Source: Antedon mediterranea (taxonomy: Eukaryota > Animalia > Echinodermata). Taken from it: a stretch of DNA of 64,000 nt. The position numbers and the translations under genes are program-made. Below, piece by piece: positions 7,574-51,100 of this stretch (the first letter of the stretch is position 1; each line of letters starts with the position of its first letter). The DNA lies in assembly GCF_964355755.1 (NCBI RefSeq), contig NC_092671.1, positions 40,806,304 through 40,870,303 on the forward strand. The letters run 5' to 3'. The notes beneath the pieces were generated by a model that saw only the letters and a program-made list of their open reading frames with translations, searched no databases and was not told where the DNA came from.

Positions 7574-9418
7574 TGTTCAGACCCATGGCGTTAGACCGTT
7601 TTAGCGTACAACGTTACTATCAAGGTCACGTTACAAACCGCAGAGAAAAAAACGAGGTGTTCAGACCCATAGCGTACGATTATCGTTACAACGGAAGTAC
7701 GTCATCCAGGTTGTTTCTAGTTGCATATCTTACCCACGTGTTTTCATCATTATTTCCACTGTATATAGGCCTAGATTTCAGCCCTACAATTATGACAAAA
7801 TTTGCCATAAATAAAACATACCTTAGCATTTATTTAAGAAAAATATAGTAAAGCCAAATTTCTGTTTCTATTGTTTTTATTTTGTAGTAAAAAACATTCT
7901 CCCCAGGCTCTTGTGTAACGAAAATAAAGCAGGCCTCGTAATGATGAAAAAAAATATGATTGTGATTAGTCTATCCAGTTCAGTCAAAGATATATATTCT
8001 TTGGTCCAGTCGGTTAAAAATATCCCTTAACTTGCTAATAAAAGGGACACAGCTCCCCTTGTTTGTTTACTGATTTTTTTAGGAGTTAGGGGGTTTTCAG
8101 CATTAAACTTGTCCAGTCTAGTCTTCCTTGTATGAATGAGTGACTCGATGTTCCACGCTAGTTTTTAGCTTGAATGAAATGCGTGAATGGCTCTAGGCCT
8201 AGCTAGGCCTAAAATCGGATGGGATCGTAGTCCCTATGTTTAAACGCCGTGGCTAAAGATACGGTACCGTATTCTAACTTCTGTTTACTAAAGGTACGGT
8301 AAAATTGCATTACGTCATAACCAGCCAATGGGGTGCTGTACGTGTGTGACGTCATCGTATAAGGACTTTGTGGATTTTTTTCATATCGCGAAAACAGTGA
8401 TCAACCGCATTTTCTTTATGCTTTATTTATCGCTATTATCGCCGTCGTGTGTGACAAAAACTAAATGTAGCCTACGTCTGTTATTATTATTGAAAAGCCA
8501 AAACATGTTGATTTTAATTCTAGAATACAGAAAACCGTTTCAAAAGAGGCCTAGGCTAGGCCTACTATAACCTCATAATATGAGTTTGTTTGTGTAGAGG
8601 GAAAGCGATGCCAGGCTGGGGCCAGCTGCATGTGTGCGCTGATTTCTGTGACTCGTTAGCCCTGGGGCTACTGTCTAAATCATAGTATTTGAGGGCCCCT
8701 TTATTGTCTGCATTTGCTTGTTGTTTATGGTCACCATTGTAAACAAAGTTTAATAAAAAATATAGGCCTAAATAGGCCATTTGGAATAAAAATAAAACCC
8801 TCATCTGCAGCGCACACACATCAACGCAGCCTGGCGCCGCCGCCGATAGCAATTCTCTACACACACAAACACAACAGACGCGATATGAAAAAAAATCCCA
8901 AGTCCTTATACGATGACGTCACACACGTACCAGCACCCCATTGGCTGATTATGACGTAATGCAATTTTACCGTACCTTTAGTAAACAGAAGTTAGAATAC
9001 GGTACCGTATCTTTAGCCACGGCGATGTTTAAATACAAGGTGCAAGTATTTAAGTCATTTGTTAGAAAATATAATGGTAATCAGTTGATAATAGTTTGTA
9101 GCCTTTGTAACAGTTGTATTTGTAGTGTAGTTAGGCCTTATTTATTCTGGCCTTTTTGTTATTGAAATCCATCTCACACATTGACGATACAAGATGTCAG
9201 CCTAGGTCAAACCTTGTTTCGCGTCATAACAGGAAACGTTCTGATTGGATACAACGTTGACTTACAGTAGCGTCGTACGCTAAAACGGTACTATCAACCG
9301 TTTTCCACTACAACGCTACAACCGTTGTACGACGCGTTGTACGCTAATCCCCAACTGTTCAGACACACATTCTTTTAGCGTCGTACGCTAAAACGGTCTA
9401 ACGCCATGGGTCTGAACA
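7574..9418. mobile_element. Non-autonomous TIR element (outer; Harbinger-like end), interrupted by a nested MITE
   Basis: 36-bp TIRs tgttcagacccatggcgttagaccgttttagcgtac (7574-7609) / gtacgctaaaacggtctaacgccatgggtctgaaca (9383-9418); subterminal copies of TGTTCAGAC at ~7659 and ~9356; right end continues ...aacagggcct. Confidence 0.75.
8245..9024. mobile_element. Mutator/MULE-like MITE with ~146-bp TIRs and 9-bp TSD
   Basis: TIRs 8245-8390 and 8879-9024 nearly perfect; flanked on both sides by atgtttaaa (8236-8244, 9025-9033); no coding capacity. Confidence 0.85.
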
Positions 9419-21950: not shown

Positions 21951-22341
21951 TACCTACGTTTAAATAATAATTATTAATAATAGGCCTACTAGCCTAGTTT
22001 ATTAATATAGGCCTATGTATAAATTGAATACACAGTAAAGTAAGGTTAGTCCCTACATAGCATAGGCCTATGTTAAGATGTAGGCTACTTATTTAATTAC
22101 ATAAATTTACCTGTTCTTGTCTTTGGGAAAATTGTAAAACTTAAGTTCTGGGTTGGCCTTTGAATTGCTTTTACAATTAATTGCAGCACAGTATATCCCT
22201 CCATTTTTTCTCTTTTCATTCATTGTTTCTTAACCATACAAACTTTTGCGCGACTCCTCAATCCCTTATCATACCAATGTCGAGAAAATCCGACAACCGA
22301 AAACGTCATCCATACTGCGATCGTCACGCAAAAGTTCGTTA

Positions 22342-22751
22342 AGCCCGGCGCACACTAGAGCTTTCGGCTGAGCCAACTGGCACGAGTGTAACACTTGGCT
22401 CAGTAACAAATTTGCCGCAAACTATGTTCGCGTTCTATCGGACGCACACTAAACGCCTTCAGTACGCGATTTTCTGATTGGATAATTACTCACTACGCTA
22501 TACAGCACGCGCTGAAATATCATAATAAATCAGAACATGTCATGCGCAGTGGAATTTTTTAGTGAGCAGGAAGCTCACGTTCGGCGCACACTTGAGGAAA
22601 ATGGCACGCGTGCCAAAAAATATTAAACACGATGAATATTTTCCTCAGCGGCACGCGTGGCCGATTCCTCACGAAATCCCCGGCGCACACTGTGAGGCAA
22701 GTGTTACTCGTGCCAGTTGGCTCAGCCGAAAGCTCTAGTGTGCGCCGGGCT
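22342..22751. mobile_element. PIF/Harbinger-type MITE nested in the P-element 5' subterminal region
   Basis: ~60-bp TIRs agcccggcgcacactagagctttcggctgagccaactggcacgagt.. ; 3-bp TTA TSD (22339-22341, 22752-22754); internal repeats of cgcacact. Confidence 0.85.
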
Positions 22752-23004
22752 TTACTCGTTTAAGCGAGGGGGCGCACTATAATTTGACGCTTCTAAAGTG
22801 TTACGCGTAAACGCGGGAAGTGTCACATCTTTTATTTATAATAAGATCTTTGCTCTGATCGAAGGAGTGAGAGAGGGCAGTATAGGAGGGAGACGAGGTG
22901 ATATGGAACGCCGGTGTAACACTCTCGAACTTGTTCATCTCTCTCTCTATAAAAATGCAATTTTTCGACGGCTGTATTTTAAGTCTAGCCTAGTCTATAT
23001 CACA

Positions 23005-23018
23005 AATTCCTTAGCAAC
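23005..23018 (+). promoter_or_regulatory. Possible RFX X-box near the inferred DNAH1 transcription start
   Basis: aattccttagcaac: good TAGCAAC half-site, imperfect left half; ciliary genes are typically RFX targets. Confidence 0.35.
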
Positions 23019-23059
23019 ACGGTACATACATACGACATTTATAAATAACATTTCACAAC

Positions 23060-23740
23060 TACTAGGCCTAGGCCCTAGGCCTAAACTGTATACTAAAAAA
23101 ACATTTAGAAAAAGAATAAGACAAGAATAGGCAAGTTATGTTTCATATTTTTTAGGACCCTAACCTAGCGCAGCTAGGCCTAGGCTAAAGCTAGGCCCAG
23201 CCTAGCTAGGCTAGCTAGCTAGGTAGGCGGGACTAGGTTCTAGGCCTAGGCCTAGGCCTAGAAGGAGTCAGACATTGTCATTAGATAGTAGGCCTAGCCT
23301 AGTTATTAGTAGGCCTAGAGGCCCAGCCAGGCCTCTACTCTAGGCTAGGCCTAGCTAGACCAGGCTAGTTTAGTTAGCTAGGGCCAGGCCCCTAGTAGGC
23401 CTAGTTTGGCTAGGGTTAGGCTAGTAGAAGTAGTAGTTGCGTATCATCTTTAAGTCTAGGGCTAGGCTAGACAGACCTACCTATAAAAATAGGGCCTACT
23501 AGGCCTAGGCTAGTAATAATAGTATAGGCTAGGCTAGGCCTAGACTTGACAACTATTTTTGGCTAGAAATGGAATCTAGGCCTAATACTAAATAGGCACT
23601 AGGCCTAGGCTAGGCCTAGCCTAAACTATTTCCATCAAACATTAAGTTAAGTCAGGAGTTAAGTTTAAGTTCTCACACAAAAAGGGCCTATTTTATATTA
23701 TAAGTAGGCTTAGCACAGGCGTAGGACTTAGGCCTAGAAG
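23060..23740. other. TAGGCCTA/CTAG-rich tract in the inferred DNAH1 first (5' UTR) intron
   Basis: Dozens of taggcc/cctagg/gctagc motifs over ~700 bp. Confidence 0.85.
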
Positions 23741-27100: not shown

Positions 27101-30100
27101 AATTTTACACAAATGATTATTGATGCATGTTATTCAGTGCTTGAATGTCAAGACACAATGGATTGGGGCAATAAATTAATTGTAAGCCCATATAGGTAAG
27201 TTAAACAAAAAATTACTTTGAAATCTTAAAGCATGGTTAGTTTAATTGTTAATTGAAAGATATAAAAATGGAAATTTTGTTTTATGTTATTAGGCCCAAA
27301 CGCAACTGTCTGTTCCTGGTAGATCTGATTTTAGATTCAACTGGTTGCCACTACAGTACACCTCTTCCCAGTTTTGAATCTATGCTTGTGTCACTATTCG
27401 ACCGTGGAATTGGAGCAACACAACATGTCCCTCAGTTAGAGAAGGTTTTTAGCATTTTTATTTTCTATTTTAATTGCAATCATTTTTACAACCATATTAA
27501 AAACCTACACCAACAATTAATTTAATGTTTATATGTAATAATCTAATAATCTGCATGTTGGGCAAGGCATAATCAAAAGTGCAAAAGCTCAAATTGTATT
27601 TGTGCTTTTATTGCAAATGGATTACTATTTTGTTCTTCTCTATTATGGTACTCCATTAATCATTGTTTAATCTTACACTTTATGTAGTATGTACTGGAAG
27701 ACATCTTTTGGGCAGATACTCCACTATTAGAATCTGTAGGTGAACACGAACCGAGAGTTGAAGAGTTAAGAGAAAACATTCGTAATGCAATCCGCAAGGC
27801 TTTGATTCCAATGAAGGCTTATTCCAAGGCTTATGAAAAACATATGCAGCTCATGAATCTGGACATTGATGAATACATCAAGTATGTCTTGTTTCTTTCT
27901 GGAAAATAATCGTTAATTATGCTTTCACATAATAAATAGATAAAGTAATAATATAATAATTGATGTTAATGTTTTTGAATTGACATTAAAATGATTGTAT
28001 TATATACAAAATAGGGAATATGATTCAAAGGAACATACTGCTGCAGAAGTGAAAAAAGAAATTGAGGATCACTTGGTTCAAAAAGAGATTCTAGAAAACA
28101 CGATACCAAGTAACATTATCATTGGGCCATTCTACATCAACACTGAGAGTGTTCGTCAAGGTCTTTCCAAAAAGCGTAGGGCATTAGCTAATGCTTTACT
28201 TGAACTACTTGCACAGAAACTGAGAAAACAAGCTGAAGATGTAAGTTTATTGAAACTAAATAACCATTATTCATATTTGGTTTCTCAAAATAATCAATTG
28301 AAAATGTTCTTTGGAGGTTTACAAAATTGTATTGTATAATAATAATATTAATGTGCCTTTGCTAAGTTGAAATCAATGTTTTTCTTTGTAGGCTTGTGAA
28401 GAATTTAAGTCAATCTCTCGTCGTCTTTATGACAGACCAAACTGCATTGAAGATTTAGCAGAAAGTAAAGAATGGATGGAGTCAATCCCAGAGAGGTTGA
28501 AAGAACATCAAGAAGTCATTGACAAAGCTATGACAGATTATGAACTGATTGAAGAGTTTTGCTATAATTTATCAACAGATGATTTTAATCTTAAGTAAGT
28601 GGTTTATTAAACAAATTGAGAGAATACAGTAATGACTGTTTTTTGTTTTGATTTTGACAAACTTGTATAAGCAAAACGTTAACTTTGCTAAGATAAAATA
28701 AAAGAAACACCCAAACACCAATTGATCAATCAATAATAATAAAAATCTCTAATTACATGACATATTTATTCAAATTATGTATTCCTTTAATTGTGCAGGT
28801 GGAGTGCCATAGGCTGGCCTCGAAAGATTGAAATCCAAATGGAGCAGACACTTCAACAACTGGAAGAAGATCAAGAACGTTTCCAAAAGATCCAAGTGAC
28901 GGACCAGAACAATTTCCAAGACAGACTTGATGCACTTCAGGTTGAATTTCCAAACAAAACTTTGCTTTTCCACAATTTCAGCAAACCAGTCAACATTCTT
29001 TATTATTTTCATTCTTGTTTTGATCTGTTACTATACCTTAACATATTCTTTTATTTTCAATATTACCTTTATCTATCATGATTCACATTTTATTTATTCT
29101 ATTCTTTATTATTTTCATTCTTTTTCTGTTACCTTTATCTACCATTTATTAAAGTTATTTTAGCCTATTCTATTTCATTCTTATTCTGTTACCTTTATAT
29201 ATCATGTTTAATTCTAGCCTATTCTATTTCATTCTTATTCATGTTTCATTTTTTATTTTAGCCTATTCTATTTCATTGTTATTCTGTTACCTTTATATAT
29301 CATGTTTAATTCTAGCCTATTCTATTTCATTCTTATCATTCATGTTTCATTTTTTATTTTAGCCTATTCTATTTCATTCTTATTCTGTTACCTTATTCTT
29401 CATCCATTTTAAAGTTATTTTAGCCTATTCTATTTCATTCTTATTCTGTTACCTTATTCTTCATCCATTTTAAAGTTATTTTAGCCTATTCTATTTCATT
29501 CTTATTCTGTTACCTTATTCTTCATCCATTTTAAAGTTATTTTAGCCTATTCTATTTCATTGTTATTCTGTTACCTTTATATATCATGTTTAATTCTAGC
29601 CTATTCTATTTCATTCTTATCATTCATGTTTCATTTTTTATTTTAGCCTATTCTATTTCATTCTTATTCTGTTACCTTATTCTTCATCCATTTTAAAGTT
29701 ATTTTAGCCTATTCTTTTATCACTATTTTTGAGAAGCGTTTACTGGTTTGTTGATATGGTTGTGGTTCATTTATCATTGCAAAGTATTGCTGGGAAACTC
29801 ATGCATTTTAACCACCCTTGCAATGCTCCATTTTCATACTTTCCAAACTATACTCTTCTTGTTTGTGTTGTTTTTATTTATGGTAGTAATGTTCTGTTCT
29901 AATGTGTGCTTTTTAATGTTTTATGTTGCATGTATACTATTCTCTCTCATTTCATCCAGTTGCTAATTTATCATACATAATCACTTTGCTAAAATACAAC
30001 AAATCATACCATATTAACTTGCATAACATAGATTGATGGCAAGTGTTGGGAACATCCATTTGTAAACACATAAATTTCATTCATATTTATTTTATATTAT

Positions 30101-33100
30101 TATGATCATCAAGTAGAACCGCTTTTATTCAATAAAACAAAAGGCAAACTGTACAGAAAACAATAATAGGCCACATGCTTACCTTAAGCAAGGATTAGCT
30201 AAAGAGGCATGGCAATAATGATAAAACAAATTTGATATCAAAAATATATTCCATCAGAACAAAATTGTAAAGACTTCATCTTAATTGATTCAACTTCAAC
30301 TAAAATATTTAAAGTAAACAGTACAAATAGCAAATAGCATTAAATCAACAAGGATGGTTTTTTGTTTCTAGTCCAATTGGTTTTTGTAAACTTTTCTTTC
30401 TGCTCTTAAACTTGACAAGGGTTGTTAAAATATTGGTGCTTCTATGTGCACATTCACATGTTGTGTACTATTACACATGAATTTGTTTGTGTATGTCCAC
30501 ATAGAATGGAATTTGTTGCTGCTCGCTCTCATGGAAACATAAGTTACACTAATTGCTTTTAAGACTAACATTGTAATACATTTATTGTAATTGGTATGGA
30601 AATCATAGCAAATATTTACAGTAATTTTGTCATTTTGTTTATGATTATCATCATATTAATGCTTTTGTGAATTATTCTGATGAATCATTGGTTTATGAAT
30701 TGTTACACCATTCTTGTATAACATTGTTTGAGATGTAATTTAGATGGTAGTTGCTGGTTTTGCTGCTCATACTGACCTTGAAAGATCACATGAAATAGCG
30801 AATGAAGTACGCAGACTGACAAAGCAGTTAAAAGAATGTCAAGGGTTGTCTACTATGTACAACAACAGAGAGCGACTCTTTGAAATGCCTCAAACTAATG
30901 TAAGTACAAGATTCTATGTACAACAACAGAGAGCGACTCTTTGAAATGCCTCAAACTAATGTAAGTACAAGATACTATGTACAACAACAGAGAGCGACTC
31001 TTTGAAATGCCTCAAACTAATGTAAGTACAAGATACTATGTACAACAACAGAGAGCGACTCTTTGAAATGCCTCAAACTAATGTAAGTACAAGATACTAT
31101 GTACAACAACAGAGAGCAACTCTTTGAAATGCCTCAAACTAATGTAAGTACAAGATACTATGTACAACAACAGAGAGCGACTCTTTGAAATGCCTCAAAC
31201 TAATGTAAGTACAAGATACTATGTACAACAACAGAGAGCGACTCTTTGAAATGCCTCAAACTAATGTAAGTACAAGATACTATGTACAACAACAGAGAGC
31301 GACTCTTTGAAATGCCTCAAACTAATGTAAGTACAAGATACTATGTACAACAACAGAGAGCAACTCTTTGAAATGCCTCAAACTAATGTAAGTACAAGAT
31401 ACTATGTACAACAACAGAGAGCGACTCTTTGAAATGCCTCAAACTAATGTAAGTACAAGATTCTATGTACAACAACAGAGAGCGACTCTTTGAAATGCCT
31501 CAAACTAATGTAAGTACAAGATACTATGTACAACAACAGAGAGCGACTCTTTGAAATGCCTCAAACTAATGTAAGTACAAGATACTATGTACAACAACAG
31601 AGAGCGACTCTTTGAAATGCCTCAAACTAATGTAAGTACAAGATACTATGTACAACAACAGAGAGCAACTCTTTGAAATGCCTCAAACTAATGTAAGTAC
31701 AAGATACTATGTACAACAACAGAGAGCGACTCTTTGAAATGCCTCAAACTAATGTAAGTACAAGATACTATGTACAACAACAGAGAGCAACTCTTTGAAA
31801 TGCCTCAAACTAATGTAAGTACAAGATACTATGTACAACAACAGAGAGCGACTCTTTGAAATGCCTCAAACTAATGTAAGTACAAGATACTATGTACAAC
31901 AACACAGAGCGACTCTTTGAAATGCCTCAAACTAATGTAAGTACAAGATACTATGTACAACAACAGAGAGCGACTCTTTGAAATGCCTCAAACTAATGTA
32001 AGTACAAGATTCTTGTAACCTGTTACTCTGAATGTGCAGGTAGTTACTTACTGTGAGTACTTTTCTCAAATCATTTATTGTCTTTATTTAAGTTTTCAAC
32101 TTGAATATTTAGACAAAATTAGGCTATCAACCAAAATAAGTATTTCTTGAATTTGGGTAGCAACCTATTTAACTCGTCGTGACAGAGTCAAAACATCATC
32201 CTTAAATCTTCAGGTCAAATTATTGTTTTTATTTATAATATTGCATATTTTACATGTTTAAATTCATTTTATTTTAGTATGATAAATTATCGAAGCTTAT
32301 CAAAGATTTTGAGCCCTTCAAAAACCTTTGGATGACAGGCTCTGATTGGTTGAAATGGTATGATAGTTGGATGAATGATCCAATTACAAGTATTGATTCT
32401 GAGCAGTGTGAGAAACAAGTCATGGACTCTTTTAAAACAATGCATAAATGTGTAAAGATCTTCAAAGACATACCTGGTAAGTCAAATGAACAGAAGGAAC
32501 ATATAGTATGTTGTACGTCACCTAGCCATTTGTAAGCATTGGTTGCATTACTTTTCAAAAGAACAAGGCCAACAGCCATAAGTCGCGTGCTAAAACGCAT
32601 AGTGATACCGGACCGACCGACCGACATAGTGAACTATAAACGCTACTAAAAACAGCATTTGGAAATGAAATGTGACCAATAAAAAGATCACAACCAAAGC
32701 AGTCTTTTTTGTACAGTGTTTATTGAGATATAACTGTAAAAGTAGAGGAGAATAATGGCAAATATTTGAAAAGAATATGCTTTTTTTAGGTGTTCAGTTA
32801 ATAGCACAGAAGATTCGGAGTGATATAGATGACTTCAAGCCATTTATTCCACTAATCCAAGGACTTCGTAACCCTGGTATGCGTAGTAGACATTGGGAAC
32901 TACTGTCTGGAGAACTTGGATTTAAGATTATCCCAAAGGCATCATTGACATTCAAGAAATGTTTAGACATGAACCTTCAACAACACATTGAAAAGATTTC
33001 AAAAGTTGCAGAGGTTGCTGGCAAAGAATACTCCATTGAACAGGTTAGTCTTTTACGTTTAGTGTATCATTTGTTATTGCATATTGTTATTGCATATTGT

Positions 33101-36100: not shown

Positions 36101-39100
36101 CCTATCAAATGTGCACACATAAAATAAATAAGAAATTACATTTAAACTTTGTTATCCAACCATAGGAAAACTCTGTTGGCCTATCAAATGTGCACACATA
36201 AAATAAATAAGAAATTACATTTAAACGTTGTTATCCAACCATAGGAAAACTCTGTTGGCCTATCAAATGTGCACACATAAAATAAATAAGAAATTACATT
36301 TAAACTTTGTAATATTACAACCATAGGAAAACTCTGTTGGCCTATCAAATGTGCGCACATAAAATAAATAAGAAATTACATTTAAACTTTGTTATCCAAC
36401 CATAGGAAAACTCTGTTGGCCTATCAAATGTGCACATAAAATAAATAAGAAATTACATTTAAACTTTGTTATCCAACCATAGGAAAACTCTATTGGCCTA
36501 TCAAATGTGCACACATAAAATAAATAAGAAATTACATTTAAACTTTGTTATCCAACCATAGGAAAACTCTGTTGGCCTATCAAATGTGCACACATAAAAT
36601 AAATAAGAAATTACATTTAAACGTTGTTATCCAACCATAGGAAAACTCTGTTGGCCTATCAAATGTGCACACATAAAATAAATAAGAAATATAACATTTA
36701 CAAAGAATGATAATAAGATGTATGTCACAATTAAATATTACAATATTTGTATACAGTATATACAATTTAATAATGGTCAAAAATTTCATTTAATTTCATT
36801 CCTGTAGGTTATCTCTCTGTGTCCAGATGCTAGACTGTTAGAAAACCTTAAAGAATGCAACAAACTTCTTGATCAAGTTCAAAAGGGATTAAGTGAATAC
36901 TTAGAGACTAAGCGTGCATCATTCCCAAGATTCTACTTCCTGTCTGATGATGAATTGTTAGAGATTCTTTCTCAGACTAAAGATCCAACAGCAGTTCAGC
37001 CGCATTTGAGGAAATGTTTTGAGAACATTGCTAGGGTGAGCATTTCCAAACAATCTGTATTTATATATATATATACACTAAAAAATGTAATAATTCTAGT
37101 AATGAGCGAAAATAAGATATTTGTTTTTTATTCACAAATAAAGTGTTTTATTTAAATATTTGTTACAGCTTCGTTTTGAAGATGATTTAAAGATAACTCA
37201 AATGTTCTCTGGAGAAGGTGAAATGGTACCATTCTGTGAAACACTCTATCCAAATGGAAATGTAGAGGATTGGCTACTAGAAGTTGAACGGGTAATGAAA
37301 GAAAGTTTAAAGAATGTTCTTGGAGAATCCATTGTCAAATACCCAGAGGTGAGCACAATTACAATATAGTATAGTATAATAATAGTATTTTAGTTAGAAG
37401 GGAAAGGAGAACACATAATGGCTTTGAAACAGAAAGGTGGCTCTTTAAAGTTCAATCAGTGAATATTCTGTTTATTATACAGGAAAAAAGAACTGATTGG
37501 GTTCTTGCATGGCCAGGGCAGATTGTGATTGCTGGTTGCCAGGTGTACTGGACACAAATGGTGGAAAATGCTATCAAAACAAGTACACTCAAAGATCTTC
37601 ATGAAGTCCTAAAGGAACAGGTAAGATTAAGTTTTTAATATAATTTTCACTGTAAATATATGAAATCTTTGCAATTTGTATATGCAAGTTGTGTATTATG
37701 TTTTCATAGATCAATGATTTGGTGAGTCTAGTGCGTGGTAAACTGTCCAAACTTGCTCGTATGATGATGTCAGCTTTGATTGTAATAGAAGTGCATGCTA
37801 GAGACGTAGTTGGCAATATGTGTTTAGAAGGTGTCAGCAACCTTAATGACTTTGAATGGATTAGTCAGCTCAGGTAATCAATATTACAATAATCACAATA
37901 ATCATCAATATCATCAAAGTAGCATCTAATAATTTGCAATTTAATCTTTTTTCTGATATAAGTTTCAAATTGTATTGAGCAAGAATATCCTTTGGCCCCT
38001 TTTTCTCAAAACCTCTCTGGACTTGAAGTCAAATTGTAATAATATCATTGTCATGATCTGTGTGTACTGAAAGATGACCATTCTATTTCCTATCTAATAA
38101 AAGGTCAAACTTTGAAACTTTCTTTTAAACAATTATACACTCCCTCTATTCTGTAAAGAAACTGGGGTTATGGAGTGTCTAGACTTGCTTATTATTTCTT
38201 CATAAAAAAAAACAAATTTAAAATGAATAATGACATTTTTGGTGTATAAAATCAAAGACAGCTTAACATTGTTATTGTAGGTATTATTGGATTGACAATA
38301 ATTTGTATGTACGTGCAGTTAATGCTGAATTTGAATATGGCTATGAGTATCTTGGAAACTCTGGTCGGTTGGTAATTACTCCACTAACAGATCGATGCTA
38401 TTTAACACTTACTGGTGCACTTCATCTTAAATTTGGTGGAGCGCCAGCAGGTCCAGCTGGCACAGGAAAAACTGAAACAACTAAGGTACTGTATGATAAC
38501 ACACTTTAAACTAAATTAACAATAAAATTATGTTTTCTCATTTAAATGATATTAGACTACTTAAATTGCCAGGTAAAGCTGTATGGTTTGTCAGATTTTT
38601 CTTGAAGTTCATTTTTATATATTTTTATTACTACAATGTGCCAATGAAAGTCAAATTTTCTATTGTTTTTGACAAATAACATTTTACTGTAGCCATGAAA
38701 CTATAGTTTAACTTTTGATTCATGTGCTTGTTTTAGGATCTTGGAAAAGCCCTGGCCATTCAAACAGTTGTTAACCCTAACCCTAACCCTTTTGATTCAT
38801 GTGCATGTTTTAGGATCTTGGAAAAGCCCTGGCCATTCAAACAGTTGTTAACCCTAACCCTAACCCTTTTGATTCATGTGCTTGTTTTAGGATCTTGGAA
38901 AAGCCCTGGCCATTCAAACAGTTGTTTTTAACTGTTCTGACCAACTAGATTTTATGGCTATGGGAAAATTCTTGAAAGGTCTTGCTAGTTCTGGTGCCTG
39001 GGCTTGCTTTGATGAATTCAATCGGATTGATATTGAAGTTTTGTCTGTAGTAGCTCAGCAAATTACTACCATCCAAAAGGCTCAGCAACAAAAGGTACAT

Positions 39101-42100
39101 TACTTATACCATTTAAATATTAAATAATAATATTATTATTATTATCTTTGTTTTTAAGTCTATAAATGGCATGGCTCCTGAATATATTTCTGACATGCTT
39201 AGGCTGTATGTTCCCGGACGTAATCTGCGTTCTAGTGACTCGCTGGTTCTACATCAGCCTAAGTCTCACCACTCATGGGGTGACAGAGCATTCTCCGTTA
39301 CTGCTCCTCGTCGGTGGAATGCTCTACTGAGCTCTATAAGATTTTGCAAAACTGTTGATACTTTTAAAAAATCATTAAAAACACATTTATTCATTAAGGC
39401 ATATGGAAATCATGAGGTTTCTTAAAGTTGTTTAGACTTAGAATTGTTTTGTATACCTTTTCCTGGCCAGCATTTTCTTTGGGGTGCCTCTGTCTTGGTT
39501 GTTGTCTCTGAGCACCCGGTCGTCTGTGGCAAGGCAAATGTGTATCCTGCTCCTTTGTTTGGTCACCTAGGTAGGGGTCCGGGATCGCGACAGAACGACA
39601 ACGGATGGGGACCCTCCAAAGAAATTGCATTTTATTTGTCAGGAATTTGTATGATTTATTTATTTTTTATTTTTAAATGCGCCTTGAGCACTCTGGAGTG
39701 GTATGTGCGCTATAAAAATCTTATTATTATTATTATTATTATTTGGGTCAACCGGCTCAGCTACAGTGATTTAGTTCACTTAGGTTGACCCTTGTCTCCC
39801 CAATTTCAGTTTTTTTTGTTTTGTATATACTTAATACTTAAATAGACCAAATAAATAATGAAATGAAATGAAACTAATTAGCAACAAAATAATAGGGTTC
39901 ATCAAAATTTATTGACATACTATTTAGATGAAAGGTTTAGAAATAAATTTAAAGGGGTATCTCACATAAATTAATTTGTTTAATAGGTGGATCGTTTCAT
40001 GTTTGAGGGGATGGAGATTGCCCTCAAGAGTTCATGTGCAGTCTTTATTACCATGAACCCTGGCTATGCTGGCCGTACAGAACTTCCAGATAACCTCAAG
40101 GTAGGTACTGTAAGGTCCATGTTTGTTTTTCGGATTGTTATAGTCTATATAATAATAGGGAAGGTATGGAGACAATGGTTATTTTTGAAAACTCCTACTA
40201 TGCAGTTGCCATATATAGTATTACATTTTATTAGGAGTATAACAACAACAACAAAGTCACCATATAATGATTGTCTTTTTGCAGGCATTATTTCGTCCTG
40301 TAGCTATGATGGTGCCAGACTATGCTATGATTGCTGAGATTTCACTGTATTCATATGGTTTTAGTGATGCGAAAGTTCTAGCTAAGAAAATTACTACTAC
40401 ATTCAAACTCTCTTCTGAACAACTTAGCTCACAGGTAAAATGACTACTACATTCAAACTGTCTTCTGAACAACTTAGCTCACAGGTAAAATGACTACTAC
40501 ATTCAAACTCTCTTCTGAACAACTTAGCTCACAGGTAAAATGACTACTACATTCAAACTCTCTTCTGAACAACTTAGCTCACAGGTAAAATGACTACTAC
40601 ATTCAAACTCTCTTCTGAACAACTTAGCTCACAGGTAAAATGACTACTACATTCAAACTGTCTTCTAAACAACTTAGCTCACAGGTAAAATTACTACTAC
40701 ATTCAAACTCTCTTCTGAACAACTTAGCTCACAGGTAAAATGACTACTACATTCAAACTCTCTTCTGAACAACTTAGCTCACAGGTAAAATGACTACTAC
40801 ATTCAAACTCTCTTCTAAACAACTTAGCTCACAGGTAAAATGACTACTACATTCAAACTCTCTTCTAAACAACTTAGCTCACAGGTAAAATCATAATATT
40901 CATTTTGAGTTTCTTATATTTAAATGAAAAAAGGAAATTAATGCTGCTCAATAATTGTTGTGTTTTAAACTATTAGTCTCATTATTTTTTTTTCATAATT
41001 ACTTTTACATTTATTTTTTAGGATCATTATGATTTTGGTATGAGAGCAGTAAAAACAGTTATTTCTGCAGCTGGTAATCTGAAACGAGAAAATTCTGAAA
41101 TGAATGAGGTATTTAATTTATTAAGTAGTACGTTGTATTAATTGATCTTAACGAAGACTAAAGTATTAGATCTAGTCTCATGATTAGGTGGTACATTACA
41201 CGAAGACTAAAGTATTAGATCTAGTCTCATGATTAGGTGGTACATTACACGAAGACTAAAGTATTAGATCTAGTCTCATGATTAGGTGGTACATTACACG
41301 AAGACTAAAGTATTAGATCTAGTCTCATGATTAGGTGGCACATTACACGAAGACTAAAGTATTAGATCTAGTCTCATGATTAGGTGGTACATTACACGAA
41401 GACTAAAGTATTAGATCTAGTCTCATGATTAGGTGGTACATTACACGAAGACTAAAGTATTAGATCTAGTCTCATGATTAGGTGGTACATTACACGAAGA
41501 CTAAAGTATTAGATCTAGTCTCATGATTAGGTGGTACATTACACAAAGACTAAAGTATTAGATCTAGTCTCATGATTAGGTGGTACATTACACGAAGACT
41601 AAAGTATTAGATCTAGTCTCATGATTAGGTGGTACATTACACGAAAACTAAAGTATCAGATCTAGTCTCATGATTAGGTGGTACATTACACGAACACTAA
41701 AGTATTAGATCTAGTCTCATGATTAGGTGGTACATTAAACGAAGACTAAAGTATTAGATCTAGTCTCATGATTTGGTGGTACATTACACGAAGACTAAAG
41801 TATTAGATCTAGTCTCATGATTAGATGGTACATTACACGAAGACTAAAGTATTAGATCTAGTCTCATGATTAGGTGGTACATTACACGAAGACTAAAGTA
41901 TTAGATCTAGTCTCATGATTAGGTGGTACATTACACGAAGACTAAAGTATTAGATCTAGTCTCATGATTAGGTGGTACATTACACGAAGACTAAAGTATT
42001 AGATCTAGTCTCATGATTAGGTGGTACATTACACGAAGACTAAAGTATTAGATCTAGTCTCATGATTAGGTGGTACATTACACGAAGACTAAAGTATTAG

Positions 42101-45100
42101 ATCTAGTCTCATGATTAGGTGGTACATTACACGAAGACTAAAGTATTAGATCTAGTCTCATGATTAGGTGGTACATTACACGTTCAGGTTATTTGTTTGA
42201 ATTTTATCAAAGTAAGACTGGTTGGTAACGGCTATCTCCATTGCAAATGTGTGCCATATTTAATGTGCTTTTCTACATTCACATTTGTACAATTTGTAAT
42301 TTGTGCCTGCCTTGTTGAATAGACTACAGTCCATCTTGCTGACTAATTCTACTTCCATTCACATTTGTACAATTTGTAATTTGTGCCTACCTTGTTGAAT
42401 AGACTACAGTCCATCTTGCCGACTAATTCTACTTCCATTCACATTTGTACAATTTGTAATTTGTGCCTACCTTGTTGAATAGACTACAGTCCATCTTGCC
42501 GACTAATTCTACTTCCATTCACATTTGTACAATTTGTAATTTGTGCCTGCCTTGTTGAATAGACTACAGTCCATCTTGCCGACTAATTCTACTTCCATTC
42601 ACATTTGTACAATTTGTAATTTGTGCCCGCCTTGTTGAATAGACTACAGTCCATCTTGCCGACTAATTCTACTTCCATTCACATTTGTACAATTTGTAAT
42701 TTGTGCCTACCTTGTTGAATAGACTACAGTCCATCTTGCCGACTAATTCTACTTCCATTCACATTTGTACAATTTGTAATTTGTGCCTGCCTTGTTGAAT
42801 AGACTACAGTCCATCTTGCTGACTAATTCTACTTCCATTCACATTTGTACAATTTGTAATTTGTGCCTGCCTTGTTGAATAGACTACGGTCCATCTTGCC
42901 GACTAATTCTACTTCCATTCACATTTGTACAATTTGTAATTTGTGCCCGCCTTGTTGAATAGACTACAGTCCATCTTGCCGACTAATTCTACTTCCATTC
43001 ACATTTGTACAATTTGTAATTTGTGCCTGCCTTGTTGAATAGACTACAGTCTATCTTGCTGACTAATTCTACTTCCATTCACATTTGTACAATTTGTAAT
43101 TTGTGCCTGCCTTGTTGAATAGACTACGGTCCATCTTGCCGACTAATTCTACTTCCATTCACATTTGTACAATTTGTAATTTGTGCCCGCCTTGTTGAAT
43201 AGACTACAGTCCATCTTGCTGACTAATTCATCATTTGTTTCCTGTATTCTTATCTTAATTGTTTAGTGTTTAATTTATTCCTATTTGACCTTTGTAGGAA
43301 TTGATTGTTTTAAGAGCTATTCGTGATGTTAATGTTCCAAAGTTTTTACAAGATGACTTGAAGTTATTCAATGGCATTGTCTCTGATCTTTTTCCGAAAA
43401 TTAAGTAAGAATCTACCTTTTTTTTTTTAAATGATGACATGAAATAAAGTATATGTTCTTTATGAAGATTACAATTTATTAATGTTATTACTATTTCATT
43501 ATATAGAGAAGAACCAATAGATTACGGTGCATTGGATGCTGCATTGAGAAGCAGTTGTTTCAACATGGACCTAAAAGATGTGGATGGGTTTATTACTAAA
43601 TGTATTCAATTGTATGAGACAACTGTTGTGAGACATGGGCTTATGTTAGTTGGTCCAGCTGGGTCTGGTAAAACCAAATGCTATGAGGTTTTAAAACAAT
43701 CTATTACATCATTGAAAGGAGAACAAGCTGTAGGTGGTGGTGTTTATGAGAATGTTCATACTTTCATTTTAAACCCTAAGAGTATAACAATGGGACAGCT
43801 GTATGGTGAATTTGATATGCTCACTCATGAATGGTAAGTTAGTAGCTCATATTTTAGTCTTGATTTTATTGATATGCTCACTCATGAATGGTAAGTTAGT
43901 AGCTCATATTTTAGTCTTGTTTTTATTGATATGCTCACTCATGAATGGTAAGTTAGTAGCTCATATTTTAGTCTTGTTTTTATTGATATGCTCACTCATG
44001 AATGGTAAGTTAGTAGCTCATATTTTAGTCTTGATTTTATTGATATGCTCACTCATGAATGGTAAGTTAGTAGCTCATATTTTAGTCTTGATTTTATTGA
44101 TATGCTCACTCATGAATGGTAAGTTAGTAGCTCATATTTTAGTCTTGTTTTTATTGATATGCTCACTCATGAATGGTAAGTTAGTAGCTCATATTTTAGT
44201 CTTGTTTTTATTGATATGCTCACTCATGAATGGTAAGTTAGTAGCTCATATTTTAGTCTTGATTTTATTGATATGCTCACTCATGAATGGTAAGTTAGTA
44301 GCTCATATTTTAGTCTTGTTTTTATTGATATGCTCACTCATGAATGGTAAGTTAGTAGCTCATATTTTAGTCTTGTTTTTATTTACATAATTGTATTCTA
44401 TATCTTATGTATTGCAGCATCAATATATCAGCTTGTCACAATTTTAAATTACTTTTAAAATAATTTTTGTCTATTTATTTGACAGGACTGATGGTATTCT
44501 GTCGTCTTTAATTCGTATGGGTTCAGCTAAGCAAGATGAAGATTCTCGTTGGTATTTGTTTGATGGTCCAGTTGATGCTGTATGGATTGAAAACATGAAC
44601 ACAGTCCTGGATGATAATAAGAAACTCTGCTTAAGTAGTGGTGAAATCATCAAGCTAACAGAAGTACATTCATTATTACCTTAAATTAATTTGGTTTTTT
44701 TTTAAATTTTGTACGACAAAGAAAGAATAGAATAGTATAAACAATAATCATCATTTAATATAAGATCTATCTATCATTTAAAAATCTTGTTCTTGTGTTA
44801 ATATTAAAATTGATACTCTTTGCATTACAATTATTCACAAAGATAAAACATTATTACCATTTGTTTTAGTTCCAAAGAATGATCTTTGAGGTTGCAGATT
44901 TAGCCGTCGCATCACCTGCCACAGTCAGTAGATGTGGTATGGTTTATATTGAGCCTAGCATCTTAGGCCTTAGTCCTTTTACGGAGTGCTGGCTGAAGAA
45001 GCTACCTGATGCTATCTATCCTTACAAAGACCAGCTTTCTGACTTGTTTACTAAGTTTCTCCAGGTTAGTAACATCATTTATTGTAGAACGCCCTTAGCA

Positions 45101-48100
45101 TCATAATACTGTTCAATAACTCTTTATTCACGCTGTACAAAAACATACACTTGTTTGACCGAGGTCATAACAAAAGTATGTAATAGATTCTCAGTTTAAA
45201 TTTAAACAGGTTGACATATATAATTAAATGCTTTTAAACTTTATATTCATGTTCATCTGTACCATTTTTTCTAGGAATCCATTGATTTTGTTCGTACAAA
45301 TTGTAAAGAGATAGTTGGTAACATTGACAGCAACCTGACATTAAGTTTGACTAGACTTATGGATTGTTTTTTCAAACCATTTGTACCTAAAGAGGTAAGT
45401 AACTGAAGTTACACTGAAGTTGATCAATCCCTCTAATCTGAATTACAATGTAATTGTAGTGGATAACAGTAATTTGTGTGTACCCGTTTACTATGTTACA
45501 ACTTATTGGAGCATTAACAAAATATATCACAGTGCTCGGATTGTTCAATAAAAAAATATCAAACATGAATTTATAACCAATGTTCTTATTATAGATACTG
45601 TGTTCATTTGTATTAAATTGTTCATTTTATTACTTCTTTTAAAATGTTTCTTTTCATTTTAATGGTTGTGTTGCTATAGAAACGAAGGGTAAGATAAAGA
45701 GTCTCCCATTGTTATTCATAAATGTACAGTACCTGTCATAAAGTTCCATGCCCCATAGTCGGTAGCATTAGTATAATTGTTCACAACAGAATTCTATTGT
45801 TGGTAGCATTAGTATAATTGTTCACACTAGAATTCAATCATTCTCAACATTAGAACATCTAGTTGAATACATTCTCTTGCTATAATCATACATTCTTTAA
45901 ACCTGAAACTAGTGCCATTACTTAGTTCTGCATTTTAGTTTTTTTTTTCCATTTCAATTCAGAAACACATACTGTAGATTGAATGTAGACAACATTAATA
46001 CAATTACAGACTTATGCTTTAAATACTTAATTTTAAAATAGAATTTAAATATCAAACCATTTATTGCTTGTGATTAGAAACATATTCATATCATTAAACC
46101 ATTTATTGCTTGTGATTAGAAACATATTCATATCATTACCTTGCTGTATGTTTAATTTCTGATTCAAGACTATTGAAAGCCAATGGTTCAATCATGCTGG
46201 ATAAGTGCCTTTTGCCAATCCTTGTCAATGTCCTACAATCATCAGTTGTAATGCTGGATCAGCGCCTTTTGCCAATCCTTGTCAATGTCCTACAATCATC
46301 AGTTGTATTGCTGGATAAGTGCCTTTTGCCAATCCTTGTCAATGTCCTACAATCATCAGTTGGAATGCTGGATCAGCGCCTTTTGCCAATCCTTGTCAAT
46401 GTCCTACAATCATCAGTTGTAATGCTGGATCAGCGCCTTTGGCCAATCCTTGTCAATGTCCTACAATCATCAGTTGTAATGCTGGATCAGCGCCTTTTGC
46501 CAATCCTTGTCAATTTCCTACAATCATCAGTTGTAATGCTGGATCAGCGCCTTTTGCCAATCCTTGTCAATGTCCTACAATCATCAGTTGTAATGCTGGA
46601 TCAGCGCCTTTTGCCAATCCTTGTCAATTTCCTACAATCATCAGTTGTAATGCTGGATCAGCGCCTTTTGCCAATCCTTGTCAATGTCCTACAATCATCA
46701 GTTGTAATGCTGGATCAGCGCCTTTTGCAAATCCTTGTCAATGTCCTACAATCATCAGTTGTAATGCTGGATCAGCGCCTTTTGCCAATCCTTGTCAATT
46801 TCCTACAATCATCAGTTGTAATGCTGTGTAATATTTCCTTTTGTATTGTATCCTATAAATTTGTTGGAGTTGGGTAGCCGAGTGGTTAGGACACTTGACT
46901 GTAATACAGATAGACACCCGGGTTCAATTCCAGACAACTCCCAGTCCACTCAGCTGTAAATGAGTACCTAGTTGAAAATACTAGGGAGAAAAACCCGGCG
47001 TGGAAAGGAACTGGCCTCTTTACCACATAATGCCGAGGCTTAGTACAATGAGCTCCTAACAGCTCATTCCCCTATGTTCAGAATGAACACGGGACTAATT
47101 ACCTCACCACCTATAAATAACAGCGTATGTCAATTTTCAGGGTGACAGACCACTTCCAGCAGACAGTTTGATGCGTATAGAAGAGTTGATAGAGCCATGG
47201 TTTATCTTCGCATTAGTATGGTCAGTAGGGGGCACTGTTGATGGAGATGGAAGGAAGAAGTTCAGTGATTATTTGCGAGAAAAGATGAAGAAAGAAAATG
47301 TAAGTACAGTCATTTGTACAACCTAGTTCTACATCTGTGATCTTATTCATTCAATAAAATAGTCTTACACATATGTTGTTTTATTCCAAAGATAAAGCTA
47401 CTTTTCCCAGCTGATCGCCTGGTTTATGATTACAAATTGGATGATGGTGGTATTACTAAATTATCAAAAGGAGACACAGAAGAGGAAGAAGAAGGTGATA
47501 GTGGCAACAAAGAGGTAAACATAGCACAACAAATCATTATCCTTGTTTCTTTCTGCTATGGGCTATTTTATCCATTACAATTTTATACAAATGTTATGTT
47601 AATAAACTTTATATTAATTATTTTATGAATTAAATATAGTTGAATGGTGTAGAATGGTTTGATTGCAATGCTTAAATCTATCATTTGATGCAAATAGCCA
47701 TGTTATTGCTACTGTATATAGAATATTGATTGTTTTGATTTCAGGTTCATTCTCAGGCGTATTCATTTCAGAATGTAGTAGTAGAACTGGAAGAGGTTAG
47801 AGTCAGGATAAATTAGCATCATGCATCTCAGTCTAGTTGTAGGCCAGGAATAAGGAAACACAAGAGTAGTTAGTTTTTTAATAGAAAGAATACTACATAA
47901 TAGGACATATTATTGAATATATCAGAATGTTTAATAATGAAAAATAAAAACAGAAATATGCCACATAAATGAAAATTGTTAATAATTATTGAATTGTTGA
48001 ATATGAACATTATTTATTGTTCTTTCCTTTTGAACTTCATTCTTTCTCATAATATTCAACAATGATTTGATAATGATACAAAACGATTGTAAATTTCTTT

Positions 48101-51100
48101 ATAGATTCGTTGGGTTGATTGGATGGAGGGTGTGGCACAATGTAAGATTTTACCAGAAACACAGTATGCTGATATTATAGTACCAACACCAGACACTGTA
48201 AGAGGATCATGGCTTATTGAAACTTTACTAGTCAATAACAAACAAGTAAGTCATTCATATATTTATTATTCACTAACAACATGAGCATGAGTCCCAATCA
48301 TATGCAATAGTATCAGGGTGTACAATAGTACTAATACTTGTAGAAGCATATACCTCATAAATAAATGTTTATGTTTTAACACAGAATGAAACAGGAGATA
48401 TTACTTACTTAATCTTGTTGAGATTCTTAGCATGATCAATTAGCGCCTAATATTTCTTTAAAGTAAACTTACACTGTGTGAATTTTTCTAGGTGTTGTGT
48501 GTTGGAGATACAGGTACAGGTAAATCTTTGACCGTCTCTGACAAGCTTCTGAAGAGTATGCCTAAGGATTTCCTCAGTAATTTTATTTCGTTCTCAGCAA
48601 GAACTAGTGCTAACCAGACCCAGGATCTTATCGACAGCAAACTTGACAAAAGGTACTGTAAAAAACAATAAAGTAAACAAAAATAAATATTGTGTACGGT
48701 AATATAATACTAATATTTTATGAATTATTAAAATGTGTCTTATCTGTATTTGATTCGACTTTCAGGTTGTTATTGAATACATACAATACATCAATGTTTA
48801 CACCATAAATCTTAAACAAACGGTTTACTACATATTATCACATTAAACTGATAGTGAAATAATGCACCATGATGCTATCATTGCTTTTCAGACGCAAGGG
48901 TGTTTTTGGGCCGCCATTAGGCAAGTATTTTGTGCTATTTGTTGATGATTTGAATATGCCTGCCCTTGAAGTGTATGGTGCACAGCCTCCAATAGAGTTG
49001 CTTAGACAGTGGATGGACCATAAAGGATGGTATGACAGAAAACAAATTGGTGAGCATTCCATGCATTCTAATCTCATGTAATTTATGATATGTTTCTCAT
49101 AAATGTACATAATATTAATACACATTATGTTTTTGAATTTTCTCAAAAAATCAAATGACAAATAAGATTTTAAACATGTTAATTTCAGGTGCATTCCGTG
49201 AACTTGTTGACATTACATTTGTATGTGCAATGGGTCCACCAGGTGGAGGTCGTAACCCAGTCACAACTCGTCTTATGCGTCATTTCAACTACTTATCATT
49301 CTGTGAAATGGAACATTCTAGTAAATCACGTATCTTTTCTACCATCTTAAACAGTTGGTTATGTGAGTATTAACTTATATATTTCATAATTGGTTTTGAT
49401 CTAATTATAGTGTAGTAAAAGTATCATTGAATAGTCATACTGTACAAATTCAACTTTAATTTAACTTGATAAGTTACTACTTTATTTTGTAATAGATGGT
49501 AATGAAGGAATACGTGAGCATTGTAACAAGCTTGTAGATTCATCTATTGATGTATACGAGACAATTACAACTCAGCTTCTACCAACACCAGCAAAGAGTC
49601 ATTACACATTCAATCTCAGAGACTTATCTAAAGTATTCCAAGGTAAGTAACATTTAGCAAGTGGTGGATGAGGTGATACATAAAGTACCGATCAGATTGT
49701 GATATAGGAGAAAGTAATCTTGTTGGCCCTATAAATAATAAAGTACCGATCAGATTGTGATATAGGAGAAAGTAATCTTGTTGGCCCTATATATAATACA
49801 GTACCGATCAGATTTTGATTTAGAAGAAAGTAATCTTGTTGACCCTTTAAATAATACAGTACTGATCAGATTGTGATATAGGAGAAAGTAATCTTGTTGG
49901 CCCTATAAATAATACAGTACCGATCAGATTTTGATTTAGAAGAAAATAATCTTGTTGGCCCTTTAAATATTACAGTACCGATCAGATTGTTATATAGGAG
50001 AAAGTAATCTTTTTGGCCCTATAAATAATACAGTATCGCTCACATTGTAATATAGGAGAAAGTAATCTTGTTGGCCCTATAAATAATACAGTACCGATCA
50101 GATTTTGATTTAGGAGAAAGTAATCTTGTTGGCCCTATAAATAATACAGTACCGCTCACATTGTAATATAGGAGAAAGTAATCTTGTTGGCCCTATAAAT
50201 AATACAGTACCACTCACATTGTAATATAGGAGAAAGTAATCTTGTTGGCCCTATAAATAATACAATACCGATCAGATTTTGATTTAGAAGAAAGTAATTT
50301 TGTTGGCCCTATAAATAGTAAAATATATAGTGCTACTGTACAGGTAAAGATCTGTCTGCTTGCCAATCGTTTATAAATTGTCTATACAAAATCATAGATA
50401 CAAGACAAAAATTAATATTTATTGCATTTTGATTTTCAGGGATGTTGATGGTAGATTCAAACAAAATTGAAAACTTGTCTGGACTTCTACGTGTTTGGTT
50501 CCATGAAAACAGTCGTGTTTTTAAGGACAGACTTGTAAATGATGAAGATTGTGAATGGTTTGATAAATTGCTGACCCAGCAAATGGTTGAGTCATTTCAA
50601 GCTGATCCAATCGAGGTGGTGCATAGTGATCCATTGATCTATGGTGACTTTATGATACCTAATGCTGACAATAAAATTTATGCTGAGATCACAGACCACA
50701 CGAAGGTAATCTATTTGTTTTTAACCTTCTACATAATTAATTAAATCTTTATATACACTGATTACAAACAATATAGAGTGAGAATGGTGTAAGTATGTAA
50801 ACTTATAAAATAATGATGTATACTGATGATGTTATTTGTAGATGGTGACAATTCTAGAGGAGTATCTAGAAGACTATAACCAAGTTAATACAGCACGTAT
50901 GCGCCTTGTGTTATTTATGGATGCTGTGAAACATGTATGCCGCATCAGCCGTGTAATAAGACAGCCTCTAGGAAATGCATTATTGCTAGGTGTAGGAGGC
51001 AGTGGACGACAGAGCTTGACAAGGCTTGCTGCTCATATGTAACTACAAAACATTTACATTTGATTATAAAGACATATCTTTTTTTCTATTACACTAATGT

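What the first reader, a model, noticed from the sequence alone, without database searches (positions are those of the whole stretch)
28941..30743. Extensively base-paired DNAH1 intron whose weak 5' splice site is locked in a long-range helix
Seen: the donor is atypical (CAG|GTTGAA). Intron nt 28943-28994 are complementary to 29738-29801 (~40 pairs), looping out the minisatellite. Immediately next, 29805-29823 pairs with 30412-30431 (attttaaccacccttgcaa/ttgacaagggttgttaaaat), continuing as 29855-29882 with 30322-30356 and a hairpin 29889-30055, both rich in G-U pairs on the sense strand. Further hairpins follow at 30440-30506, ~30641-30689 and ~30702-30738 next to the acceptor. Repeats and insertions fall in loops. 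Inference: an RNA-level multi-domain fold controlling splicing (splice-site masking, intron detention, ADAR substrate or intron-encoded structured RNA), not explained by any annotated element.
Basis: partly seen in the sequence, partly recalled or inferred. Interest (0 to 1): 0.72.

Follow-up and report, generated by a model that had tools for sequence, protein, structure and literature searches.

The report
Conserved helix over feather-star dynein donor
In a feather star's ciliary motor gene DNAH1, the first 54 bases of one intron are complementary to a stretch 800 bases downstream, both stretches are almost unchanged in a related species while the DNA around them drifts, and the RNA helix they are predicted to form would cover a weak splice site and likely tune how well this intron is removed; the larger many-hairpin fold proposed for the rest of the intron did not hold up.

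Summary
The window is crinoid (Antedon) DNAH1. Intron 28941-30743 is real: an RNA-type contig joins 28940 to 30744, and the donor is third weakest of 61. Helix H1 (28943-28994 with 29738-29801) is real and far beyond chance (-51 kcal/mol, z -8.5, best of 32 introns), single-copy, and conserved: in a related species the arms carry one listed change in 140 bases, which keeps its pair (G.U to A-U), against about 8% nearby, while the loop shrinks from 667 to about 172 bases. A gene model of Anneissia japonica ends in nine residues that match the translated right arm, so the block is old. The rest of the proposed fold fails: 29828-30743 folds worse than shuffles, two named helices are broken in the relative, the acceptor-side hairpins are at chance level, and H1 is equally stable on the antisense strand with no G.U excess. 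Helix H2 is uncertain. No such helix in 11 orthologous introns of other animals. Best reading: a crinoid long-range pre-mRNA duplex that likely gates a weak donor, like Drosophila CG33298 and human PCCRs. Function untested.

The parts
28799..28940 (+). DNAH1 coding exon upstream of the intron (residues about 859-905 of the Antedon protein P0012)
   Evidence: X5 contig covers it exactly
28938..28948 (+). Weak donor CAG|GTTGAATT; matches the consensus only at -3 to +2
   Evidence: 3rd weakest of 61; used in X5 contig
28943..28994 (+). H1 left arm, intron +3 to +54; donor-proximal half 28943-28965 (-19 kcal/mol), distal half 28972-28994 (-34 kcal/mol with its extension)
   Evidence: one change in organism B, 28981 G>A, pair kept; a 7-base deletion starts at 28995 in X6
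29000..29715 (+). U-rich minisatellite in the H1 loop (units of 61, 98, 122 nt); 29049-29715 is about 172 nt in organism B; holds 7 of the 10 acceptor-like AGs that score at least as well as the true acceptor
29738..29801 (+). H1 right arm; contains a cryptic donor-like site at 29746 and the AG at 29783-29784 that corresponds to the acceptor implied by the Anneissia model
   Evidence: no listed change 29716-29827 in organism B
29802..29827 (+). Conserved block after H1: 5' strand of candidate H2 (29805-29823); can also fold back on 29783-29794 (-12.3 kcal/mol), in competition with the donor-proximal half of H1
30412..30431 (+). 3' strand of candidate H2 (uncertain)
   Evidence: 18 pairs, -20 kcal/mol, 19 of 300 shuffles as good; no indel in X7; substitutions in organism B not visible
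30440..30506 (+). Local hairpin of modest significance, not strand-specific
   Evidence: X7 has a one-base insertion in its bulge
30718..30743 (+). Weak acceptor with a poor pyrimidine tract; branch-point-like TATAAC at 30718-30723 (read from the sequence, untested)
   Evidence: 6th weakest of 61; used in X5 contig
30744..30899 (+). DNAH1 coding exon downstream of the intron

Best explanation
The first 54 bases of this DNAH1 intron and a conserved stretch 800 bases downstream are complementary and are predicted to form one long RNA helix that likely acts as a gate on a weak splice donor. Shown: the complementarity, the weak donor and acceptor, correct splicing in one RNA-type run, conservation of both arms. 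Predicted by folding: the helix closes as soon as the right arm is transcribed; its distal half (-34 kcal/mol) is a firm anchor, its donor-proximal half (-19) covers +3 to about +25 except A+6, and a small exonic hairpin covers -4 to +2. Inferred: the spliceosome must engage the donor before the helix closes, or the weaker half must be opened (a local hairpin 29783-29827, -12 kcal/mol, competes for the same strand); transcripts that miss this keep the intron, meet a stop codon 46 codons in, and are held or destroyed, which would tune DNAH1 output. Probability that H1 is a selected RNA-level structure of any function: about 0.65.
For: H1 z -8.5, best of 32 introns. Pairing probability 0.8-1.0 in nascent prefixes ending at 29830 and 30100, and in the full intron when the minisatellite is held unpaired; donor positions -4 to +5 paired at 0.88-0.99. 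Organism B: 1 listed change in the 140 arm bases against about 8% in the neighbouring 801 bases (Fisher p 4.5e-4; Poisson p 0.0016 at the lowest local rate); the change keeps its pair; changes resume right outside the arms (28995, 29828) and the loop length differs about fourfold. The Anneissia model's 17-residue tail has its best match in all six frames of the window at 29784, score 48 against 33 for the next, nine identical residues in a row against at most five in 150 shuffles; this includes 29796-29801, the bases that pair with +3 to +8. Arms are single-copy at 80% likeness. Precedent: CG33298 (PMC2724269, passages).
Against: No direct sign of repression: the X5 contig is correctly spliced, and intronic contigs in X5 (depth 3.9-7.5, exon 24) are matched by one on a control intron (2.5). 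H1 is as stable on the antisense strand and shows no G.U excess. No two-sided compensatory change was seen. The left arm alone is not significantly conserved (p 0.07-0.15). In the unconstrained full intron H1 has probability 0.0 at 37 and 15 C because the U-rich minisatellite pairs across it. A fourfold change of loop length argues against tight timing. Conservation extends beyond H1 (29802-29827), so part of the block is kept for another or unresolved reason. In human, such regions are depleted over active splice sites (PMC8052449, passages), and single-box mutations in constitutive Drosophila introns had no visible effect (PMC2724269).
Confidence: 0.35

Rival explanations
1. H1, perhaps with H2, is a bridge that helps splicing: it loops out decoy acceptors, hides a cryptic donor at 29746 and shortens a long intron with two weak ends (1803 to 944 bases with H1, to 317 with H1 and H2; median intron of this gene 205).
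For: Acceptor 6th weakest of 61; 10 internal AGs score as well or better, 7 of them in the H1 loop, second highest density among 15 long introns; the donor-like site at 29746 (5.6 against 2.8 for the true donor) lies in the firm half; the only mRNA form seen is correct. Precedents: Neurospora NCU01977 (PMC3597705, abstract and section 18), zebrafish AC/GT introns (PMC4691745, passages).
Against: H1 is predicted to cover the donor itself; H2 is weakly supported; most decoys come from a minisatellite that is much shorter in organism B, so they cannot be the old reason; 13 other GT sites in the intron outscore the true donor, so such matrix hits are common.
Confidence: 0.25
2. The arms come from an old inverted duplication of the intron start; the right block is conserved for another reason (protein-binding or enhancer element), the left arm because it sits next to a splice site, and pairing has little effect.
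For: Strand symmetry, no G.U excess; left arm not significant alone; conservation runs past H1 to 29827; duplexes of -50 or better occur in 15 of 1049 tiles of the window; no two-sided compensatory change seen.
Against: The arms are only about 80% complementary to each other yet about 99% identical between species, the single arm change keeps its pair, and changes begin at the arm edges. 14 of the 15 strong tiles lie upstream of the coding region.
Confidence: 0.2
3. H1 is an ADAR substrate; editing of A+6 (28946, opposite C) or A28954 alters donor use or marks the transcript.
For: Long imperfect duplex; two A.C mismatches with the A on the left arm, one of them donor +6. A.C preference of ADAR is recalled knowledge.
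Against: I at +6 would not restore the consensus (inference). X5 contigs on 30038-30598 list no A>G, but no X5 contig lies on either H1 arm, so H1 editing was not tested.
Confidence: 0.08
4. The whole intron is a multi-domain structured RNA or hosts a separate non-coding RNA.
For: Helices can be drawn end to end; hairpin 30440-30506 is stable in all full-length folds.
Against: 29828-30743 folds worse than shuffles; H3 and H4 broken in organism B; the conserved block has no local fold (z 0.09); no Rfam family near its threshold (best E 0.46).
Confidence: 0.04
5. The arms are terminal inverted repeats of a MITE that landed at the donor.
For: Inverted arms with strand-symmetric pairing; the genome region has many inverted repeats.
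Against: Only the orthologous contig lies on the arms in X1 (left arm), X6 and X7, while true dispersed repeats nearby draw many contigs; no second copy in the window; no target-site duplication at the flanks (sequence); the intron position is shared with other animals; arms are conserved like exons.
Confidence: 0.04

Closest known systems
Drosophila CG33298 conserved box pair (Raker et al. 2009, PMC2724269; passages read)
   Same: Conserved intronic long-range stem whose first box overlaps a donor site.
   Different: There the covered donor is an alternative one and is suppressed; here it is the only donor seen in use for a frame-keeping exon. Distance 185 nt there, 743 nt here; here about 47 pairs; no mutational test here.
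Human pairs of conserved complementary regions, PCCRs (Kalmykova et al. 2021, PMC8052449; passages read)
   Same: Intronic, near a splice site, conserved on both sides, covers cryptic splice-site-like motifs.
   Different: PCCRs are depleted over active splice sites; conservation here rests on two relatives, one seen only through a translated tail.
Neurospora NCU01977 alpha/alpha-prime pairing (Li and Breaker 2013, PMC3597705; abstract and section 18 read)
   Same: Conserved element near a donor pairs with a partner about 530 nt away in a large intron, with a competing local stem.
   Different: That pairing raises donor use and is switched by a TPP aptamer; no aptamer family matched here.
Zebrafish (AC)m-(GT)n bridged introns (Lin et al. 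2016, PMC4691745; passages read)
   Same: Pairing across an intron with a poor pyrimidine tract.
   Different: Simple repeats at both intron ends; here unique sequence, and the partner lies mid-intron.
Yeast RPL22 intron switch (PMC13630204; abstract and section list only)
   Same: Alternative intronic stems that permit or stall splicing.
   Different: Feedback by the encoded RNA-binding protein; no such ligand is evident for a dynein.

Membership tests
Conserved long-range intronic duplex (PCCR / Raker box pair) | Stable complementarity beyond chance within one intron | tested here: met
   z -8.5, 0 of 575 shuffles
Conserved long-range intronic duplex (PCCR / Raker box pair) | Both regions conserved above the intronic background | tested here: met
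   1 listed change in 140 bases against about 8%; right block also in Anneissia; left arm alone not significant
Conserved long-range intronic duplex (PCCR / Raker box pair) | Compensatory substitutions | tested here: inconclusive
   one one-sided change that keeps the pair, no two-sided change; too few sequences
Conserved long-range intronic duplex (PCCR / Raker box pair) | Effect on splicing lost by arm mutation and restored by compensation | not testable with these tools
   needs a minigene
MITE / terminal inverted repeat element | Dispersed copies of the arms | tested here: not met
   single contig on the arms at 80% likeness; none in the window
MITE / terminal inverted repeat element | Target-site duplication | tested here: not met
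   flanks of 28943 and 29801 differ
Known structured RNA families (group II intron, riboswitch, snoRNA, miRNA) | Match to an Rfam model | tested here: not met
   2 weak matches far below threshold, both antisense
ADAR-edited duplex | A>G differences between RNA and DNA in the arms | tested here: inconclusive
   no RNA-type contig on the arms; only contigs available
Detained or retained intron | Intron reads above those of neighbouring introns | tested here: inconclusive
   X5 intronic contigs 3.9-7.5 against 2.5 on a control intron; contig depth cannot rank

The most novel reading that the evidence does not exclude
A crinoid two-state RNA switch on an essential, constitutive donor of an axonemal dynein gene: the conserved block 29783-29827 either zips over the donor (with H2 closed) or folds on itself and frees it, and the closed state sends transcripts to retention or to a cryptic acceptor inside the arm, the one the Anneissia model uses, giving an RNA-structure control of ciliary motor dosage.
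Probability: 0.12. Interest if true: 0.7.

Novelty: new member of a known kind. Interest (0 to 1): 0.42.

Why it matters
Long-range intronic helices that steer splicing are known from flies, vertebrates and fungi; my searches found none described for DNAH1 or for echinoderms. This one is long, overlaps a donor in active use, which is the depleted class in human, and keeps its arms while its loop changes length, so it is a clean test case for whether such a helix gates or helps a constitutive donor. It appears limited to feather stars, which caps its general reach.

Tried and rejected
No genome is held for this window, so no genome-wide copy count. No Rfam match. A 27-base motif of the right block found nothing in metagenome, viral or prokaryote collections. 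No run on record as RNA was listed; X5 is only guessed to be RNA. X5 has no contig on either H1 arm; this blank is no evidence. X9 does not hold the locus in 29716-30850. Orthologous introns: 14 loci, L013 (ends in the exon) and L014 (not DNAH1) dropped, L004 repeats L001, leaving 11 distinct introns; z from -2.5 to +1.8 and no shared sequence beyond one 13-base match. Read-through tails of 157 exon-derived ORFs from other organisms match the left-arm translation at 5 of 18 residues at most. No second truncated model ending at this intron among 3 candidates. Pairing of the left arm with the acceptor end (-21 kcal/mol) is no better than the shuffle mean. Pairing of the H2 5' strand with the next exon is weak (-13). 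A group II-like six-domain wheel was considered and dropped. AATAAA-type signals occur three times in the intron, as expected in AT-rich DNA. Earlier findings of the scan: nothing by sequence or relatives; genome notes concern other loci. Divergence time of Antedon and Anneissia was not found.
Full report
Context. The window encodes axonemal dynein heavy chain 1 of a feather star. One exon is 84% identical to Anneissia japonica DNAH1, and the Antedon mediterranea protein P0012 maps across 24103-63058 with most exons at or near 100% identity, giving 61 introns with a median of 205 bases. No whole genome is held.

The intron is real. A 2891-base contig of run X5 (organism A, guessed to be RNA) ends at 28940 with loose letters that are the start of the exon at 30744, and the reverse is seen from the other side. 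The donor CAG|GTTGAA is third weakest of 61 and the acceptor sixth weakest of 61 by leave-one-out matrices. The intron position is shared by 11 distinct orthologous introns from other animals (14 loci, 2 dropped, 1 duplicate).

H1 is real. 28943-28994 pairs with 29738-29801 at about -51 kcal/mol. None of 575 dinucleotide shuffles of the first 60 bases came near (mean -24.8, best -36.9, z -8.5), and it is the strongest of the 32 introns of 200 bases or more, next -35.9 (this intron is among the longest, which helps it a little). Across the window 15 of 1049 tiles reach -50; 14 lie upstream of the coding region. Folding gives H1 a probability of 0.8-1.0 in nascent prefixes ending at 29830 or 30100 and in the full intron when the minisatellite is held unpaired, but 0.0 in the unconstrained full intron and in the prefix to 30450, where the U-rich minisatellite pairs across it. 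In the nascent fold donor positions -4 to +5 and +7 onward are paired, the first part by a small exonic hairpin. H1 is not strand-specific: -49.3 on the antisense strand, with 38 Watson-Crick pairs, 1 G.U, 2 A.C and 5 other mismatches in its two ungapped segments.

The rest of the proposed fold is overcalled. H2 (29805-29823/30412-30431) has 18 pairs but 19 of 300 shuffles match it and its ensemble probability is at most 0.1. The hairpins near the acceptor score z -0.6 and -0.1 on the sense strand, and 30440-30506 scores better on the antisense strand. The stretch 29828-30743 folds worse than its shuffles (z +3.2, 22 shuffles). No Rfam family fits.

Conservation singles out H1. Runs X6 and X7 hold a related species, organism B. 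In B the left arm has one change, 28981 G>A, which turns a G.U pair into A-U; a 7-base deletion begins at 28995 in X6. No change is listed from 29716 to 29827; the X7 piece 29716-29838 has two other letters and no gap, one of them at 29828. The next 119 bases have 22 changes and the X6 contig has 66 in 29716-30628. One change in 140 arm bases against 65 in 801 gives Fisher p 4.5e-4; at the lowest local rate Poisson p is 0.0016; the left arm alone is not significant. Caveat: 47 rows of the table were hidden; the listed ones run without a break to 30194, so I infer the hidden ones lie further on, and substitutions in the H2 3' strand could not be seen.

A more distant crinoid keeps the right block. 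The Anneissia model P0001 stops at this intron and ends in 17 residues that are not dynein. Their best match in all six frames of the window is at 29784, score 48 against 33 for the next, with nine identical residues in a row covering 29796-29822; 150 shuffles of the intron reached 35 and five. The model thus implies an acceptor at the AG matching 29783-29784. The Anneissia models lack residues 906-1112, so the tail may be an annotation repair at a gap rather than a transcript; it still reports the DNA. Outside crinoids nothing similar appears.

Not a dispersed element. At 80% likeness only the orthologous contig lies on the arms, whereas repeats at 28694-28746 and 30117-30166 draw many contigs; there is no second copy in the window and no target-site duplication.

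Mechanism. The best-supported reading is a selected pre-mRNA duplex (about 0.65). I commit to a gate on the donor (0.35): the firm distal half anchors, the weaker half covers the donor and has a local competitor (-19 against -12 kcal/mol), and the bases that pair with +3 to +8 are among those kept in Anneissia. A retained intron would meet a stop after 46 codons. The bridge reading (0.25) rests on the weak acceptor and the 7 of 10 decoy acceptors in the loop. Against the gate, the only mRNA form seen is correctly spliced, intronic contigs in X5 are not clearly above a control intron, and the loop length varies fourfold. No step from structure to splicing outcome is shown.

Known relatives. Drosophila CG33298 (PMC2724269, passages), human PCCRs (PMC8052449, passages), Neurospora NCU01977 (PMC3597705, abstract and one section), zebrafish bridged introns (PMC4691745, passages) and yeast RPL22 (PMC13630204, abstract) cover the principle. 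Searches for DNAH1 with intron structure and echinoderm with conserved RNA structure listed nothing on this element; I saw only the listings, and supplements were not consulted. Verdict: a new member of a known kind, with an unusual overlap of an active donor; interest 0.42.

Noticed in passing
window 30851-32017, 40387-40891, 43812-44383, 56438-57128, 59810-60202: Several introns begin with tandem copies of the exon end plus its donor (61 nt x 19, 50 x 10, 57 x 10, 114 x 6, 23 x 17); the X5 contig and the protein alignment do not show which copy is used.
   Followed up: no
window 38712-38926 and 62460-62911: Tandem repeats that include an acceptor and exon start (77 nt x 2.8, with a telomere-like tail; 64 nt x 7).
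   Followed up: no
window 62387: GC-AG intron (AAG|GCAAGT), the only one of 61.
   Followed up: no
window 8160-9000 and 22300-23730: Strong GC-rich inverted repeats upstream of the coding region, up to -103 kcal/mol per 60 bases; transposon-like.
   Followed up: no
window 53127-55213 (minus strand): Broken ORFs that read like a LINE reverse transcriptase inside intron 52946-55382 (likeness recalled, not tested); a similar 3' fragment at 39117-39425.
   Followed up: no
window 28694-28746 and 30117-30166: Short dispersed repeats with many copies in organisms A and B; B has an 80-base insertion behind 28745.
   Followed up: partly
P0123 against P0012, residue 2126; intron 47515-48104: Antedon isoform X1 has 17 extra residues here, so this intron likely holds an alternative small exon or splice site.
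   Followed up: no
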